Below, piece after piece: positions 51,001 through 64,000 of a DNA stretch of 64,000 nt. Source of the stretch: Octopus vulgaris (taxonomy: Eukaryota); the NCBI GenBank assembly GCA_951406725.2, contig OX597829.1, forward strand, positions 31,930,001 to 31,994,000, in the 5' to 3' direction. Each line of letters begins with the position of its first letter. Position 1 is the first letter of the stretch. Position numbers: made by a program.

Positions 51001-54000
51001 AAAACCTCTTTGGTTTTCTTTTTCGATAGGTTGTGACACTTGGAATCAATTTGCCCTATGTTTTTTTCAGGTTGCTTGAAGCTGGCGCAGTTAAGGTGTA
51101 TGCTATTTGCACTCATGGTATTTTCTCTGGCCCAGCCATTTCAAGAATTAACAGTTCTCAGTTTGAGGCAGTTGTGGTTACTAACACAATACCACAAGAT
51201 GAAAGGATGAAACAAGCACCAAAAATTCAGGTAGGATCTGCAGTTAAGATTTTAAATTCTCAAGCAAATTTTGTTTCTTGCTTTTCAATGTTTTTTTAAA
51301 TTTATTTTTACTTTACAGTTAAATGTGCTATATATGTTTCTCTGTAATTGTGAAAATGTCTTATCTTTACATTTCATTAATCATTTAATTTTTATTTAAA
51401 CCCTTTATTCGTTTTTTTTTTTTAAACTTCGGTAATGAATGAGTCACTTTAGTTTCACAACCCTCCCCTCATCTTTAATATGAATCTATTACATATTGAT
51501 CTATATGTAACACATTATACAAATTGCTTCTCGTGTATTCTACTATGCTGTCATTTTCTCCATCTGGTATTAAGTTTGATACCAACATCTTAACATTCAT
51601 TCATCCATTCATTCAACTTTGTTCACTTATTGATGGTTTTCTCTTTCCATTACTCTTACATCCCAACTTTTCTAAGAAATGTGATAGATTAAAAGATGTT
51701 TAGACTTCATAATAGGTAAAAATAATAAACTAGTTTCCTGTCTTGTTCATTCTATTGGCTGACCATTTAGATTTTCATCAGAATGATCTGTTATTGAAAT
51801 GACCTCTCCAGTGGCTAGCTTCCTAACACACAAAATTCTTTGATACTCTTCTTTTTTTTCTCTTTCCCTTTTTCAGTGTATTGATATATCGATGATTTTA
51901 GCTGAGGCTGTACGGCGTACTCACAACGGAGAGTCTGTATCTTACCTGTTTTCCAATGTGCCAATGTAGATGCTGTTGCCAGTTGATTGACACTTTTATA
52001 ATGCAGGTTCTTATAAAAGAAACAAAGAATATCTTCAAAGAAAACATGCATGGTTATTTTGTTTGAAATATATTATTTGCATGTTATTTGTGAAAATGAA
52101 TTATGCACTTAACTAAAAATGATGCTTTAGCTAAATATTTTAGCTTTTTCTTCATAATTTCAGATTAAAACTGCTAAAGACTTTATGGGGTGGGAATTTT
52201 TTTAAATAAAATTTACAAAAATTGGGTTTTGTTTTCACTCCTTTTCTCTCAATATTATTTGTGTGGTTGACTCTGTCTTGATAAAGTCATTGTAAGATTA
52301 TGGTCCATAATTTTAGTGAATATGATTAGCTTAATTTTTCTTTTCATTCACAAGATTAAAATTTTTTTTTTCCTATTCTTGACAGAGAAGCATGTGCATG
52401 CCATTATTCTTAGAATCTTCCTACTCTTGATTTTCTTTGTTAGGCTGCTGTTGCTTTCTTTTCCTCTTGATGAATTCATTACCTTTTCTTTTAATGAAAT
52501 CATTACCTTCTCTAATTGGATATCAAGGTAAAATATTGCTTCAGTGCTCAGATCTCTTAATTTCTGGATAGAAAACCCAAGTATATGTAATTATTTTCTA
52601 TTCATTTCAAGTAGTTTTTAGTGCTTTTTTAGATTTAATTTTCAATCAATTTTTCCAGAGTCTCCTTCAGAATGTTTTATTAAATTCTTGTAATGCAGCA
52701 TCTGCCATTTATGAAAAACAAAATTGGCTATTTTGGAATGTTTCTAAATGAAATTTCAGGCACTTAACATTATTTCTGATCATTATATGGCACAATTTAT
52801 TCAAATCTCTCATTGTTTGCTTCAGTTTTAAATATCAAAACTTTTGTTAATTCTGTCTTATTCTTGGAATATTTTGAGCATTATGCAAAATATTAGAATT
52901 AGAGCAAAACAGGATACTTTTTCTTATTTTATTTTCTCTTGTATTTTTGCTAGTTTTTCCTTCATTTTCTTTTTCCTCTTTCTTTTCAATGCTTTTGTTT
53001 ATCAAAGCAATAGTAAATCTGAGAAGTTTCTTTTTCACATTTGGTCTGTGGGTGTGTATTTATTATTATTGGAAATGCTGCTTCTGCTTCTTTTTTCTTT
53101 CTTGATATAAATTCCAAGAAGCTGTTAGGCTTCTTTAGAGTGCTAGTCAATTGTTGCTCTTTGAAAATAAATGACCCTCATATATATTCATACATATCTA
53201 TTAAATATGCATTTTCTATCCCATCCATGTTTATAAATTGGGCAATATTTGATTGGTAATATTTCTTTGTAGACATGAGCATTAAAAGCCTCTTATCTCT
53301 TTAAATTGTGGTAAAAAGGTGATTTTTTTTAAAGAATTTTTTTATTATTTTGTTTGAAATTTCATTTCACCAATATCTCAATATTCTCTTTCTTTGGGCT
53401 AAGTAATAGGGTCAATCTTGACTAGTTTTATTTTAGGATTTTTGTCTATATAAATCTTTCTTGATCCTCTTAGAAACTAGAGATTCTGATATAAAGCAGT
53501 TAGTCTATAAAAAGAATCATAATATAACAATTGCATGAATCTGGATGAAATTGTTGAAACGACAGAATGATCGTTGGTGTACATTGTGACTGGCTTTTAT
53601 TTATGTCCTTTCATCTGCCAAGGTAGATTGAATACAGTTAGATTGATTACACAAGTGTTTCCACTTATATTTACAAGATATCAATTCCTGGGCATTGATT
53701 TCCTAATTATTAATAAGTAATAAATAATGACTCTGAATTCTAATTTACATCCTAAAGTATTAGATACCTTTTAACTTAAAGATTAGAGGGAGAAAATGGT
53801 CAGAGAAATTTATTTGATAAAACAATAAATAAACAAACATGGTGCAAGTGGAAAGTTCTTTCTAAAATAAGGTTAAGTTTTGTTACTTGCACAGAAGAGT
53901 TCTTAGATCCAGTTTTTGACACACTGAAGTAACTGCTATTTAAGCTGCAGTTTTGTCTCGGTTAAGATTTCTGCAATATAGAACTTTATGGGTCATTGAC

Positions 54001-63000: not shown

Positions 63001-64000
63001 TCATTAAAAGTAATTTATATATGAATATTTTTGAGAAAATTTATTGTGAATAAAATTTAAATTGATTTAAATTAAAATGTTGTTTGGAAATATATCATCT
63101 TCATTGCGTATGTTGTGATCTGATTCATTGTGGATAGTAGAGAGTAGGTGTTGGTGAATCTCATGTTGTCCAAAGGAACAGCAACTAAATTTTGAAATTG
63201 TGTCCCACTCAACAAGGAATATCGTAACAAAAAGATTAACTCTTTAGCATTCAGATTACTTGTTTATTTATTCACATTGTTTTGGATTAATTACGAATTG
63301 TCTTGTAGCTTCAAAATTCCAATGATGTGATTTATTTTTTAGAATGAAACTGTAAGGGAGATATGAGAGGCTGGATCTGGTTGGTTTGAACATAAAACGG
63401 GTTGAATATTTTGGCATGGTATGACTGGTTTAGAATTGCTAAAGGGTTAAAGCAAGGACCCTGAATAATGTCTGGGTGCACCATGCTTAAAAAAAAAAAA
63501 GAAAATACTGAGTAGCTTTGCTCAAATGGGACTAACTTGGAGATAAATAATTAACCTTATGTTGAAGATTAAAGAAAATCGCATACATACTCATAGAAGA
63601 TGGTAAATGTCTGGTATATCTGCTTTCTAAGTTCTATTTGTATCCCAGTCAGGTTTCTTTTTAATTAAGATCGTAAAGTTTGTACATTATCATTTGTTTC
63701 TGACATCTTTTCTGTATTCTCTCTGTCTCAATATTTTTAATTATTTTTATTTTTATTTTTCAGTGTATTGATATATCAATGATGCTTGCCGAAGCCATCA
63801 GGCGGACACACAATGGCGAGTCTGTCTCCTATTTATTCAGCCATGTTCCTCTCTAACTGCTGCTACCTTCCTTGCAAAATTTAGTACCTTTTCAAAATTA
63901 CTTTTGTCATTATTTTCCCCTATACCATGTATCAGAGCAATACTTTTTCATGATTTTTTTTTTTTTTTTTTAAGAAAAGGGAAGAAAAAAAAGGGAAATC

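What the first reader, a model, noticed from the sequence alone, without database searches (positions are those of the whole stretch)
51877..63856. PRPS has two intact, anciently diverged copies of its last coding exon: a candidate alternative-last-exon isoform switch
Seen: exons 7a (51877-51969) and 7b (63764-63856) are both 93 nt and phase 0. Each has a strong pyrimidine tract, a tttcag acceptor and its own stop codon, so either can join exon 6 to give a 318-aa enzyme. The proteins differ only at I/M295, V/I300, N/H315 and M/L318 (human numbering), yet 18 of the 26 identical residues use different codons, including a TCC/AGC serine switch. I saw no homology between the flanking sequences beyond the acceptor, and no second set of upstream exons in the 11.8 kb between them. 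Inference: this is an old duplication with both copies under purifying selection. One locus would then make two isozymes with different 3'UTRs, paralleling what vertebrates achieve with separate PRPS1/PRPS2 genes. I do not know whether it has been described.
Basis: partly seen in the sequence, partly recalled or inferred. Interest (0 to 1): 0.9.

Follow-up and report, generated by a model that had tools for sequence, protein, structure and literature searches.

The report
Duplicated last exon in PRPS gene
An invertebrate gene for the nucleotide-precursor enzyme PRPS carries two intact, anciently diverged copies of its last coding exon, so it can probably make two enzymes that differ in the tail controlling filament assembly and feedback regulation; no transcript data were available to confirm this.

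Summary
A seven-exon, all GT-AG PRPS gene lies on the + strand (31552-51969; 957 nt = 318 codons plus stop). Its last exon (7a, 51877-51969) has a second copy (7b, 63764-63856) with the same length, the same phase and its own stop codon. The copies differ at 27 of 90 coding bases but at only 4 of 30 residues. Fourfold sites are saturated (10 of 11 differ). Simulation shows that neither copy could have drifted neutrally for more than about 0.1 substitutions per site, out of at least 1.4. No other PRPS exon copy exists anywhere in the 64 kb.

The best reading is a tandem exon duplication used as alternative last exons. This is a known kind of event: 77 of 236 human tandem-exon substitutions are C-terminal. 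The exon encodes the whole filament interface (E298, R301, R302, N305, E307; kept in both copies) and the allosteric tail (306-315). The four differences lie around these residues.

Transcript use and conservation in related species could not be tested with the tools available.

The parts
31552..31673 (+). PRPS exon 1 (ATG at 31552; donor TTG|gtatgt)
   Evidence: tblastn with E. coli Prs, E 3.5e-4. Pfam Pribosyltran_N, 31 bits against a cut-off of 25. Boundaries.
44820..45003 (+). PRPS exon 2
   Evidence: tblastn E 1e-19. Pribosyltran_N, 96.6 bits. GT-AG boundaries.
47029..47127 (+). PRPS exon 3
   Evidence: tblastn E 7e-8. Boundaries. Pfam gave only 17.4 bits, below the cut-off of 25.
47379..47503 (+). 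PRPS exon 4
   Evidence: tblastn E 6e-6. Boundaries. No Pfam hit on its own.
50447..50620 (+). PRPS exon 5 (PRPP-binding loop)
   Evidence: tblastn E 4e-9. Aligns without gaps to residues 178-233 of solved human PRPS1 chains, E 8e-28; no PRPSAP chain was listed among the 25 hits.
51071..51230 (+). PRPS exon 6. It ends in phase 0, and its donor CAG|gtagga is shared by both last exons.
   Evidence: Pfam Pribosyl_synth positions 107-157 of 184, 49.8 bits.
51846..51876 (+). Acceptor region of 7a: a CU-rich tract (22 of 22 pyrimidines at -25..-4) ending in tttttcag, with CTAAC at -54
51877..51969 (+). Exon 7a, the proximal last coding exon (residues 289-318, stop TAG). It carries I295, V300, N315 and M318.
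   Evidence: Pribosyl_synth positions 160-183 of 184, 33.5 bits against a cut-off of 27. Matches human PRPS1/2 residues 290-318, E 4e-12, with 3 of 29 residues different.
52164..52210 (+). Candidate poly(A) hexamers for 7a: ATTAAA at 52164 and AATAAA at 52205, which are 195 and 236 nt after the stop
   Evidence: Such hexamers are common in this AT-rich window (355 on both strands), so this is weak evidence.
51970..63763 (+). The 11.8 kb between the copies: the 3' UTR of 7a, then intron-like DNA with repeats. It holds no PRPS exon and no ORF above 92 aa.
63261..63453 (.). Interspersed repeat of about 190 nt lying 310 nt upstream of 7b. Five other copies are in the window (55636-55816, 45043-45225, 42108-42226, 48784-48933, 761-907).
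   Evidence: blastn of 62000-64000 against the window, 69-75% identity, E 2e-10 to 2e-24. It ties the surroundings of 7b to the same genome as the rest of the gene.
63730..63763 (+). Acceptor region of 7b: a U/A-rich tract (17 of 22 pyrimidines at -25..-4, all T) ending in tttttcag, with CTGAC at -64
63764..63856 (+). Exon 7b, the distal last coding exon (residues 289-318, stop TAA). It carries M295, I300, H315 and L318.
   Evidence: Pribosyl_synth, 34.7 bits. Matches human PRPS1/2 residues 290-318, E 5e-13, with 1 of 29 residues different. Shares M295, I300 and H315 with E. coli Prs.

Best explanation
A tandem duplication of the last coding exon of a class I PRPS gene (ribose-phosphate pyrophosphokinase), kept as a pair of alternative last exons.

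Proposed mechanism:
- The phase-0 donor of exon 6 (51230) is spliced either to the proximal acceptor (7a), with cleavage and polyadenylation a few hundred bases downstream, or, when that 3' end is bypassed, to the distal acceptor 11.9 kb further on (7b).
- Either choice gives a 318-residue enzyme with an identical body (residues 1-288) and a swapped C-terminal module (289-318).
- In human PRPS1 that module carries the whole hexamer-stacking filament interface (E298, R301, R302, N305, E307) and the tail (306-315) that closes the allosteric phosphate/ADP site.
- Both copies keep all five contact residues. They differ at 295 and 300 on the interface helix and at 315 and 318 in the tail. The likely effect is a tuning of filament stability and allosteric sensitivity rather than an on/off change.

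Shown here: the two intact copies, their age, selection on both, and the absence of any other PRPS exon nearby.

Inferred: that both are spliced to exon 6, that the choice is coupled to poly(A) site use, and what the four substitutions do.
For: 1. Same length, phase, acceptor and reading frame, each with its own stop.
2. Both match the same Pfam profile positions above the curated cut-off and the same residues 290-318 of solved PRPS1/2 chains.
3. Synonymous sites are saturated (pS 0.94; 10 of 11 fourfold sites differ) while only 4 of 30 residues differ. Against outgroups, 7a has 3 differences from the human chains and 7b has 1. The neutral-drift simulation rules out more than about 0.1 substitutions per site of unconstrained evolution on either branch.
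4. No second set of PRPS exons exists in the window, so the exon-6 donor at 51230 is the only partner in sight for 7b.
5. A 22-nt identical run (8 intron + 14 exon bases) spans both acceptors although the rest of the exon is saturated. The first four degenerate codons are all unchanged, P = 0.0028. This suggests nucleotide-level constraint on a shared splice signal.
6. Poly(A) hexamers lie 195 and 236 nt after the 7a stop, and only one donor-like site (7 of 9 matches to the consensus, at 52528) lies within 630 nt. This fits a terminal exon.
7. An interspersed repeat next to 7b has five other copies across the window, and the window has no N. This argues against a foreign join.
8. The kind of event is established. 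C-terminal homologous substitutions made through alternative poly(A) use are 77 of the 236 human tandem-exon events (PMC8373072 and PMC9741552, passages read).
9. The functional content of the exon comes from passages of bioRxiv 10.1101/2022.06.27.496812 and PMC10227994.
Against: - No transcript evidence of any kind was available, so use of either junction is not shown.
- The 3' end of a 7b transcript lies outside the window.
- Poly(A) hexamers are frequent by composition, so those after 7a prove little.
- 7a has a perfect pyrimidine tract (22 of 22), which would make it the default choice. How it is bypassed to reach 7b is unknown.
- The four substitutions are conservative and leave every known contact residue unchanged, so a functional difference between the isoforms is not demonstrated.
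- Conservation of the pair in related species could not be checked, because no eukaryotic genome collection was on hand.
Confidence: 0.72

Rival explanations
1. One copy is a recently retired pseudo-exon. The pair was functional for most of its history, but only one exon is spliced today.
For: The simulation cannot exclude a short neutral period. At 0.05 substitutions per site a copy stays as intact as observed in 47% (7a) or 13% (7b) of runs. No transcript data were available.
Against: Both copies keep the acceptor, the frame, the stop and all five filament-contact residues. A neutral period of 0.2 substitutions per site is already excluded.
Confidence: 0.13
2. 7b belongs to something else: the last exon of a separate PRPS paralog, or a piece brought next to this gene by an assembly join.
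For: 7b lies only 144 nt from the end of the window, so its downstream context is unseen. Contiguity of the 11.8 kb cannot be verified from the sequence alone.
Against: - No copy of exons 1-6 lies between 7a and 7b or anywhere else in 64 kb.
- The window has no N.
- Base composition near 7b (GC 0.31) is like that near 7a (0.32).
- The repeat at 63261-63453 has five other copies across the window, including in PRPS introns.
Confidence: 0.07
3. Mutually exclusive choice is governed by competing RNA structures, with a docking site pairing with a selector at each copy, rather than by competition between splicing and polyadenylation.
For: The 22-nt run identical in both copies could act as a selector.
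Against: The best duplex of that 22-mer with intron 6 is -8.7 kcal/mol. That is no better than shuffled versions: mean -9.8, and 143 of 200 shuffles were at least as stable. Each copy also has its own stop and no convincing donor after it, so these are terminal rather than internal exons.
Confidence: 0.05

Closest known systems
Tandem exon duplication-derived C-terminal substitutions (homologous alternative last exons), e.g. human PRKCB, GNAO1, and the 3' exons of TPM1 / fly Tm1 / worm lev-11
   Same: Two homologous 3' coding exons lie in tandem. Each has its own stop, gives a protein identical except for a homologous tail, and differs mostly by conservative changes, and the event is ancient. 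The cited papers say such events are made through alternative poly(A) use, and that 77 of 236 human events are C-terminal (PMC8373072, PMC9741552; passages read).
   Different: The gene: 'PRPS' occurs 0 times in the main text of either paper. Here the swapped module is a structured interface and allosteric element of a metabolic enzyme, not the transmembrane, coiled-coil or disordered tails that those authors say predominate. Use in transcripts is not shown here.
Vertebrate PRPS1 / PRPS2 paralogs
   Same: Two closely related catalytic PRPS forms occur in one organism. [quoted passage not shown]
   Different: Those are whole-gene duplicates on different chromosomal segments. Their solved chains are identical over residues 290-318, exactly where 7a and 7b differ. 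PMC10227994 states that the two human enzymes differ at 15 residues.
Human PRPS2 long/short isoforms
   Same: Isoforms of a catalytic PRPS made from a single gene.
   Different: In the passage seen, PMC10227994 mentions the long and short forms under its section on the RF loop, not the C-terminal module. That they differ by a small insertion is my recollection; the chain lengths of 321 and 318 fit it. No duplicated exon is involved, as far as the passages I read show.

Membership tests
Class I PRPS (ribose-phosphate pyrophosphokinase, catalytic subunit) | N-terminal PRPS domain (Pfam Pribosyltran_N) | tested here: met
   Exon 1 scores 31 bits and exon 2 scores 96.6 bits against a cut-off of 25. 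Exon 3 scores 17.4 bits, below the cut-off on its own. Exons were searched one by one.
Class I PRPS (ribose-phosphate pyrophosphokinase, catalytic subunit) | C-terminal domain (Pfam Pribosyl_synth / Pribosyltran) running to the end of the profile | tested here: met
   Exon 5 29.9 bits, exon 6 49.8 bits, 7a 33.5 bits, 7b 34.7 bits, against a cut-off of 27. 7a and 7b both cover positions 160-183 of 184.
Class I PRPS (ribose-phosphate pyrophosphokinase, catalytic subunit) | About 318 residues, without the insertions that mark the PRPS-associated proteins | tested here: met
   Exon lengths sum to 318 codons. Exon 5 aligns without gaps to PRPS1 residues 178-233, and no PRPSAP chain is among its 25 hits. 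PRPSAP chains score lower than PRPS1/2 for both last exons.
Class I PRPS (ribose-phosphate pyrophosphokinase, catalytic subunit) | Conserved filament-interface residues E298, R301, R302, N305, E307 | tested here: met
   All five are present in both 7a and 7b (codon table). The residue list comes from bioRxiv 10.1101/2022.06.27.496812 and PMC10227994.
Class I PRPS (ribose-phosphate pyrophosphokinase, catalytic subunit) | Enzyme activity and filament formation | not testable with these tools
   Needs expressed protein. The joined protein was deliberately not built, searched or folded.
Homologous alternative last exons (tandem exon duplication-derived C-terminal substitution) | Two homologous exons in tandem, on the same strand of one gene, with the same phase and compatible with the same upstream donor | tested here: met
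   tblastn of 7a against 7b gives E 1.9e-15 with 26 of 30 residues identical.
Homologous alternative last exons (tandem exon duplication-derived C-terminal substitution) | Both copies maintained by purifying selection | tested here: met
   with outgroup comparison.
Homologous alternative last exons (tandem exon duplication-derived C-terminal substitution) | Each copy has its own stop codon and its own poly(A) site | tested here: inconclusive
   Both stop codons are present. Hexamers follow 7a at +195 and +236 nt, but such hexamers are common here. Only 144 nt follow 7b before the window ends, and they contain no hexamer.
Homologous alternative last exons (tandem exon duplication-derived C-terminal substitution) | Mutually exclusive use in mature transcripts | not testable with these tools
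   No RNA data or eukaryotic transcript collection was available.
Separate PRPS paralog gene | A second set of upstream PRPS exons for 7b | tested here: not met
   Best E in 51970-63763 was 5.4 with E. coli Prs and 0.78 with the window's own exons. No extra copy of exons 1-6 exists anywhere in the window.
Mutually exclusive exons with docking/selector RNA pairing | A site in the upstream intron complementary to a sequence shared by the copies | tested here: not met
   The duplex energy of -8.7 kcal/mol was matched or beaten by 143 of 200 shuffles. Only intron 6 and only the shared 22-mer were tried.

The most novel reading that the evidence does not exclude
The exon pair is an ancient, lineage-wide switch. 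It lets a single PRPS gene make two enzymes whose filament helix and allosteric tail differ, notably H315 (shared by E. coli and human) replaced by N in 7a. The result would be isoform-specific or mixed hexamers and filaments with different stability and different sensitivity to phosphate activation and ADP inhibition, chosen by tissue through 3'-end processing. This would be a way of diversifying PRPS regulation that targets the very module left identical between vertebrate PRPS1 and PRPS2.
Probability: 0.3. Interest if true: 0.6.

Novelty: new member of a known kind. Interest (0 to 1): 0.42.

Why it matters
PRPS makes PRPP, the entry point to nucleotide synthesis. Recent structural work holds that filament assembly through the C-terminal helix, and ordering of the C-terminal tail, set the enzyme's activity and its allosteric control.

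A natural pair of interchangeable C-terminal modules, kept under selection for a very long time, would be a ready-made comparison of what residues 295, 300, 315 and 318 do. It would also show that animals without a PRPS2 gene can diversify PRPS by splicing. For annotation, both exons should be modelled, because a pipeline that stops at the proximal stop codon will miss 7b.

It remains one more example of a well-known evolutionary mechanism, so the general interest is moderate.

Tried and rejected
1. A second PRPS gene between the copies. No exon copies were found. In one search my exon-5 query was out of frame; I corrected it, with the same result.

2. A gene or a recognisable protein domain in the 11.8 kb. 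There are 30 stop-to-stop ORFs of at least 60 aa, the longest 92 aa. Of the 10 I sent to Pfam, none reached a curated cut-off; the best was 14.8 bits. I had guessed from memory that 60350-60589(-) is a mariner-type transposase N-terminus. Pfam did not confirm this.

3. A third, decayed exon-7 copy at 37570-37626 (+), in intron 1. tblastn with 7a gave E 0.005 with 10 of 19 residues identical, and 2 of 400 shuffled 7a peptides scored as high. It lies inside a tandem repeat of about 80 nt, has in-frame stops beside it, and shares 30 of 57 nt with 7a and 26 of 57 with 7b. With eight exon queries this is borderline. I take it for chance, but it is not excluded.

4. Docking/selector RNA pairing: no better than shuffles.

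5. 7a as an internal 'poison' exon spliced onward to 7b. Protein-level purifying selection on 7a and the lack of a good donor after it argue against this.

6. Gene conversion as the cause of the similarity. Saturated synonymous sites reject it, except possibly for the first 22 nt.

7. Rfam and tRNA scans of the window: 0 hits each.

8. Literature: ten searches found no description of a duplicated PRPS last exon. One search was poorly designed: none of the 10 papers it listed contained the enzyme name. mostly matched prion 'PrPs'.

9. Not done:
- The joined spliced protein was not assembled, searched or folded; all searches were exon by exon.
- No search of eukaryotic genomes or transcriptomes was possible.
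The exon-structure tables and Figshare data of PMC12238573 and bioRxiv 10.64898/2026.06.01.728777 could bear on this and were not seen.
- RefSeq-type isoform annotations for this gene could not be consulted, so the pair may already be annotated there.
- None of my calls identified the organism.
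Full report
**The observation**

51877-51969 and 63764-63856 are each 93 nt. Each follows a ...tttttcag acceptor, is read in phase 0 and ends in its own stop codon, TAG and TAA respectively. The exon before them ends in phase 0 at 51230 with CAG|gtagga.

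The copies differ at 28 of 93 nt. Within the 90 coding nt, 27 differ, distributed 7/1/19 over codon positions 1, 2 and 3. Only four residues differ: I/M295, V/I300, N/H315 and M/L318. Of the 26 identical residues, 18 use different codons, including TCC against AGC for Ser314. Scattering 27 substitutions at random over the exon gave 4 or fewer residue changes in 0 of 200,000 trials (mean 16.4, minimum 8). The pattern is therefore not chance.

**The gene**

I used E. coli Prs as a neutral probe, taken from the named K-12 record. tblastn found eight significant pieces on the + strand of the window and nothing else. With splice sites read from the sequence, the model is:

| Exon | Coordinates |
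|---|---|
| 1 | 31552-31673 |
| 2 | 44820-45003 |
| 3 | 47029-47127 |
| 4 | 47379-47503 |
| 5 | 50447-50620 |
| 6 | 51071-51230 |
| 7a | 51877-51969 |

All introns are GT-AG. The exon lengths sum to 957 nt, which is 318 codons plus a stop. 7b has the same length and phase as 7a.

The length is a sum of exon lengths only.

- Exons 1 and 2 match Pfam Pribosyltran_N above its cut-off. Exons 5, 6, 7a and 7b match Pribosyl_synth above its cut-off. Exon 3 falls below the cut-off on its own, and exon 4 gives no Pfam hit on its own.
- Exon 5 aligns without gaps to residues 178-233 of solved human PRPS1 (E 8e-28), and no PRPS-associated protein is among its 25 hits.
- 7a and 7b both cover profile positions 160-183 of 184 (33.5 and 34.7 bits against a cut-off of 27) and residues 290-318 of solved PRPS1 and PRPS2 chains.

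This is a catalytic, class I PRPS gene.

**7b stands alone**

- Between the copies (51970-63763), the best E. coli Prs hit has E 5.4. The best hit of any of the window's own exons, each searched separately, has E 0.78 (my exon-5 query was out of frame and corrected).
- No extra copy of exons 1-6 exists anywhere in the 64 kb.
- The interval has no stop-to-stop frame above 92 aa. None of the ten ORFs I sent to Pfam reached a cut-off.
- The only repeat joining the two places is the exon itself, with 23 nt upstream and 11 nt downstream. Flank identity beyond that is close to what T-rich composition gives.
- The window holds no N, and GC content near 7b (0.31) is like that near 7a (0.32).
- A repeat of about 190 nt lying 310 nt upstream of 7b has five other copies across the window, including in PRPS introns.

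So 7b sits in the same kind of DNA as the rest of the gene, and the only PRPS exon-6 donor upstream of it is the one at 51230.

**Age and selection**

Synonymous sites are saturated (Nei-Gojobori pS 0.94). Ten of 11 shared fourfold sites differ, which puts the lower 95% bound of their distance at 1.41 substitutions per site.

Outgroups split the four replacements between the copies:
- Solved human PRPS1/2 chains differ from 7a at 3 of 29 aligned residues and from 7b at 1 of 29.
- E. coli Prs has M295, I300 and H315, which are the 7b states.
- 7b is therefore the more ancestral-looking copy. 7a carries derived V300 and N315.

I simulated a neutral branch from either copy. With 0.2 substitutions per site, a copy stays open, keeps its stop and shows no more changes than observed in 0.065% (7a) or 0% (7b) of 20,000 runs. 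At 0.1 the figures are 7.6% and 0.8%. Each copy has thus been under purifying selection at the protein level for roughly nine-tenths or more of its separate history. A very recent loss of use of one copy cannot be excluded from the sequence.

**Signals**

| Feature | 7a | 7b |
|---|---|---|
| Pyrimidine tract, -25..-4 | 22 of 22, CU-rich | 17 of 22, all T, interrupted by A |
| Branch-point-like site | CTAAC at -54 | CTGAC at -64 |

A run of 22 nt (8 intron + 14 exon bases) is identical in the two copies, although the rest of the exon is saturated. The chance that the first four of the 25 degenerate, residue-identical codons are all among the 7 unchanged ones is 0.0028. This points to constraint on the nucleotides around the acceptor, or to a small local conversion.

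After the 7a stop there is ATTAAA at +195 and AATAAA at +236, and only one donor-like site (7 of 9 matches to the consensus, at 52528) within 630 nt. This fits a terminal exon, but such hexamers are common in this AT-rich window (355 on both strands). Only 144 nt follow 7b, and they contain no hexamer.

A docking/selector mechanism found no support. The shared 22-mer pairs with intron 6 no better than shuffled versions, and 143 of 200 shuffles were at least as stable.

**What the exon encodes**

This comes from passages I read in four papers.

- In human PRPS1 filaments the primary hexamer-stacking interface consists of E298, R301, R302, N305 and E307. [quoted passage not shown] R301A, E307A and truncation at S308 abolish assembly and nearly abolish activity. 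The disease mutations I290T and V309F lie in the same stretch (bioRxiv 10.1101/2022.06.27.496812).
- The PRPS2 filament uses the same residues (PMC10227994).
- A 2026 preprint states that eukaryotic class I PRPS strongly conserve these C-terminal residues (bioRxiv 10.64898/2026.06.01.728777).

Exon 7 (residues 289-318) therefore encodes exactly this assembly and allosteric module. Both copies keep all five contact residues. The differences lie at 295 and 300 on the interface helix and at 315 and 318 in the tail.

My inference is that the two isoforms differ in how readily filaments and the allosteric pocket form, not in whether they can form. That 295 lies one helical turn before E298 is my own geometric reasoning and was not tested.

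**How it most likely works**

This is a tandem exon duplication kept as a pair of alternative last exons. Exon 6 would be joined either to 7a, with polyadenylation shortly after, or to 7b when the proximal 3' end is bypassed.

The CU-rich tract of 7a and the U/A-rich tract of 7b could be read by different regulators. From my own recollection, PTB-type proteins bind CU-rich tracts and ELAV/TIA-type proteins bind U-rich ones. This is speculation.

I put 0.72 on this reading, 0.13 on a recently retired copy, 0.07 on a different owner of 7b or an assembly join, and 0.05 on a structure-driven mutually exclusive choice.

**Comparison with what is known**

Homologous alternative C-terminal exons are an established class. 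[quoted passage not shown] They are generated through alternative poly(A) use and are mostly ancient, with conservative residue changes. Examples given are PRKCB, GNAO1 and the tropomyosin 3' exons (PMC8373072, PMC9741552; passages read). 'PRPS' does not occur in the main text of either paper.

The PRPS evolution paper PMC12238573 says that PRPS2 arose in jawed vertebrates and that most holozoans have two class I homologs. In its main text I found no occurrence of mollusc, cephalopod, invertebrate, 'splice variant' or 'alternative splicing'.

Ten literature searches found no description of a duplicated PRPS last exon. Two of them were poorly aimed.

The solved human PRPS1 and PRPS2 chains are identical over residues 290-318, so the vertebrate paralogs do not differ in the module that is swapped here.

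**What stayed unchecked**

- Transcripts.
- The 3' end after 7b.
- Any other species.
- Supplementary exon tables of the PRPS evolution papers (closed).
- Existing database annotations of isoforms.
- The identity of the organism. None of my calls names it.

**Verdict**

The duplication is ancient, and both copies are maintained by selection. Use as alternative last exons is the best-supported reading but is not shown. This is a new member of a known kind and is of moderate interest, mainly to people who study PRPS regulation and filaments.

Noticed in passing
window 31489-31551 (+): An in-frame ATG lies 63 nt upstream of the PRPS-like start. It comes directly after a stop codon and would add 21 residues (Ser/Lys-rich) to the N-terminus. 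Human N3 is a filament contact, so an extension could matter. The transcription start is unknown.
   Followed up: no
window 6489-7040 (-) and 44305-44661 (+): Two open frames match the Pif1 helicase 2B domain (56.1 and 41.6 bits against a cut-off of 23.9). They are probably relics of Helitron-type or Pif1-like elements. The second ends about 160 nt before PRPS exon 2.
   Followed up: partly
window 18655-19176 (+): A 173-aa open frame has a weak match to DDE_3 transposase (17.7 bits, below the cut-off of 28.6). It is likely a decayed Tc1/mariner-type element.
   Followed up: partly
window 63261-63453, 55636-55816, 45043-45225, 42108-42226, 48784-48933, 761-907: An interspersed repeat family of about 190 nt (69-75% identity) with six copies in the window, in both orientations. 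The copies at 55.7 kb and 63.3 kb are inverted relative to each other within the 7a-7b interval (also I1/I3). In a pre-mRNA they could pair and loop out about 7.5 kb.
   Followed up: partly
window 54210-54276 and 56292-56358: A 67-nt inverted repeat, 90% complementary, with arms 2 kb apart. These may be the terminal inverted repeats of a DNA transposon of about 2.1 kb inside the 7a-7b interval.
   Followed up: no
window 37537-37720 (+): A tandem repeat with a unit of about 80 nt. One unit translates to a 19-residue stretch that is 10 of 19 identical to residues 298-316 of exon 7a (E 0.005; 2 of 400 shuffles score as high). In-frame stops lie beside it. I take it for chance, but a very old decayed fragment is not excluded.
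   Followed up: yes
window 51970-51980 and 63857-63867: The first 11 nt after the two stop codons are 8 of 11 identical (alignment; included in repeat D1). The duplicated unit may therefore have extended slightly past the stop.
   Followed up: no
window 2401-2739, 5774-6148, 8594-8986, 54388-54642 and others: (TG)n(TA)n-type microsatellites embedded in a recurring element give similar 'THTHTYIYIY' open frames at several places on both strands.
   Followed up: no
window 48106-48271: A tandem repeat of a 65-nt unit, 2.6 copies, 79% matches, in PRPS intron 4.
   Followed up: no
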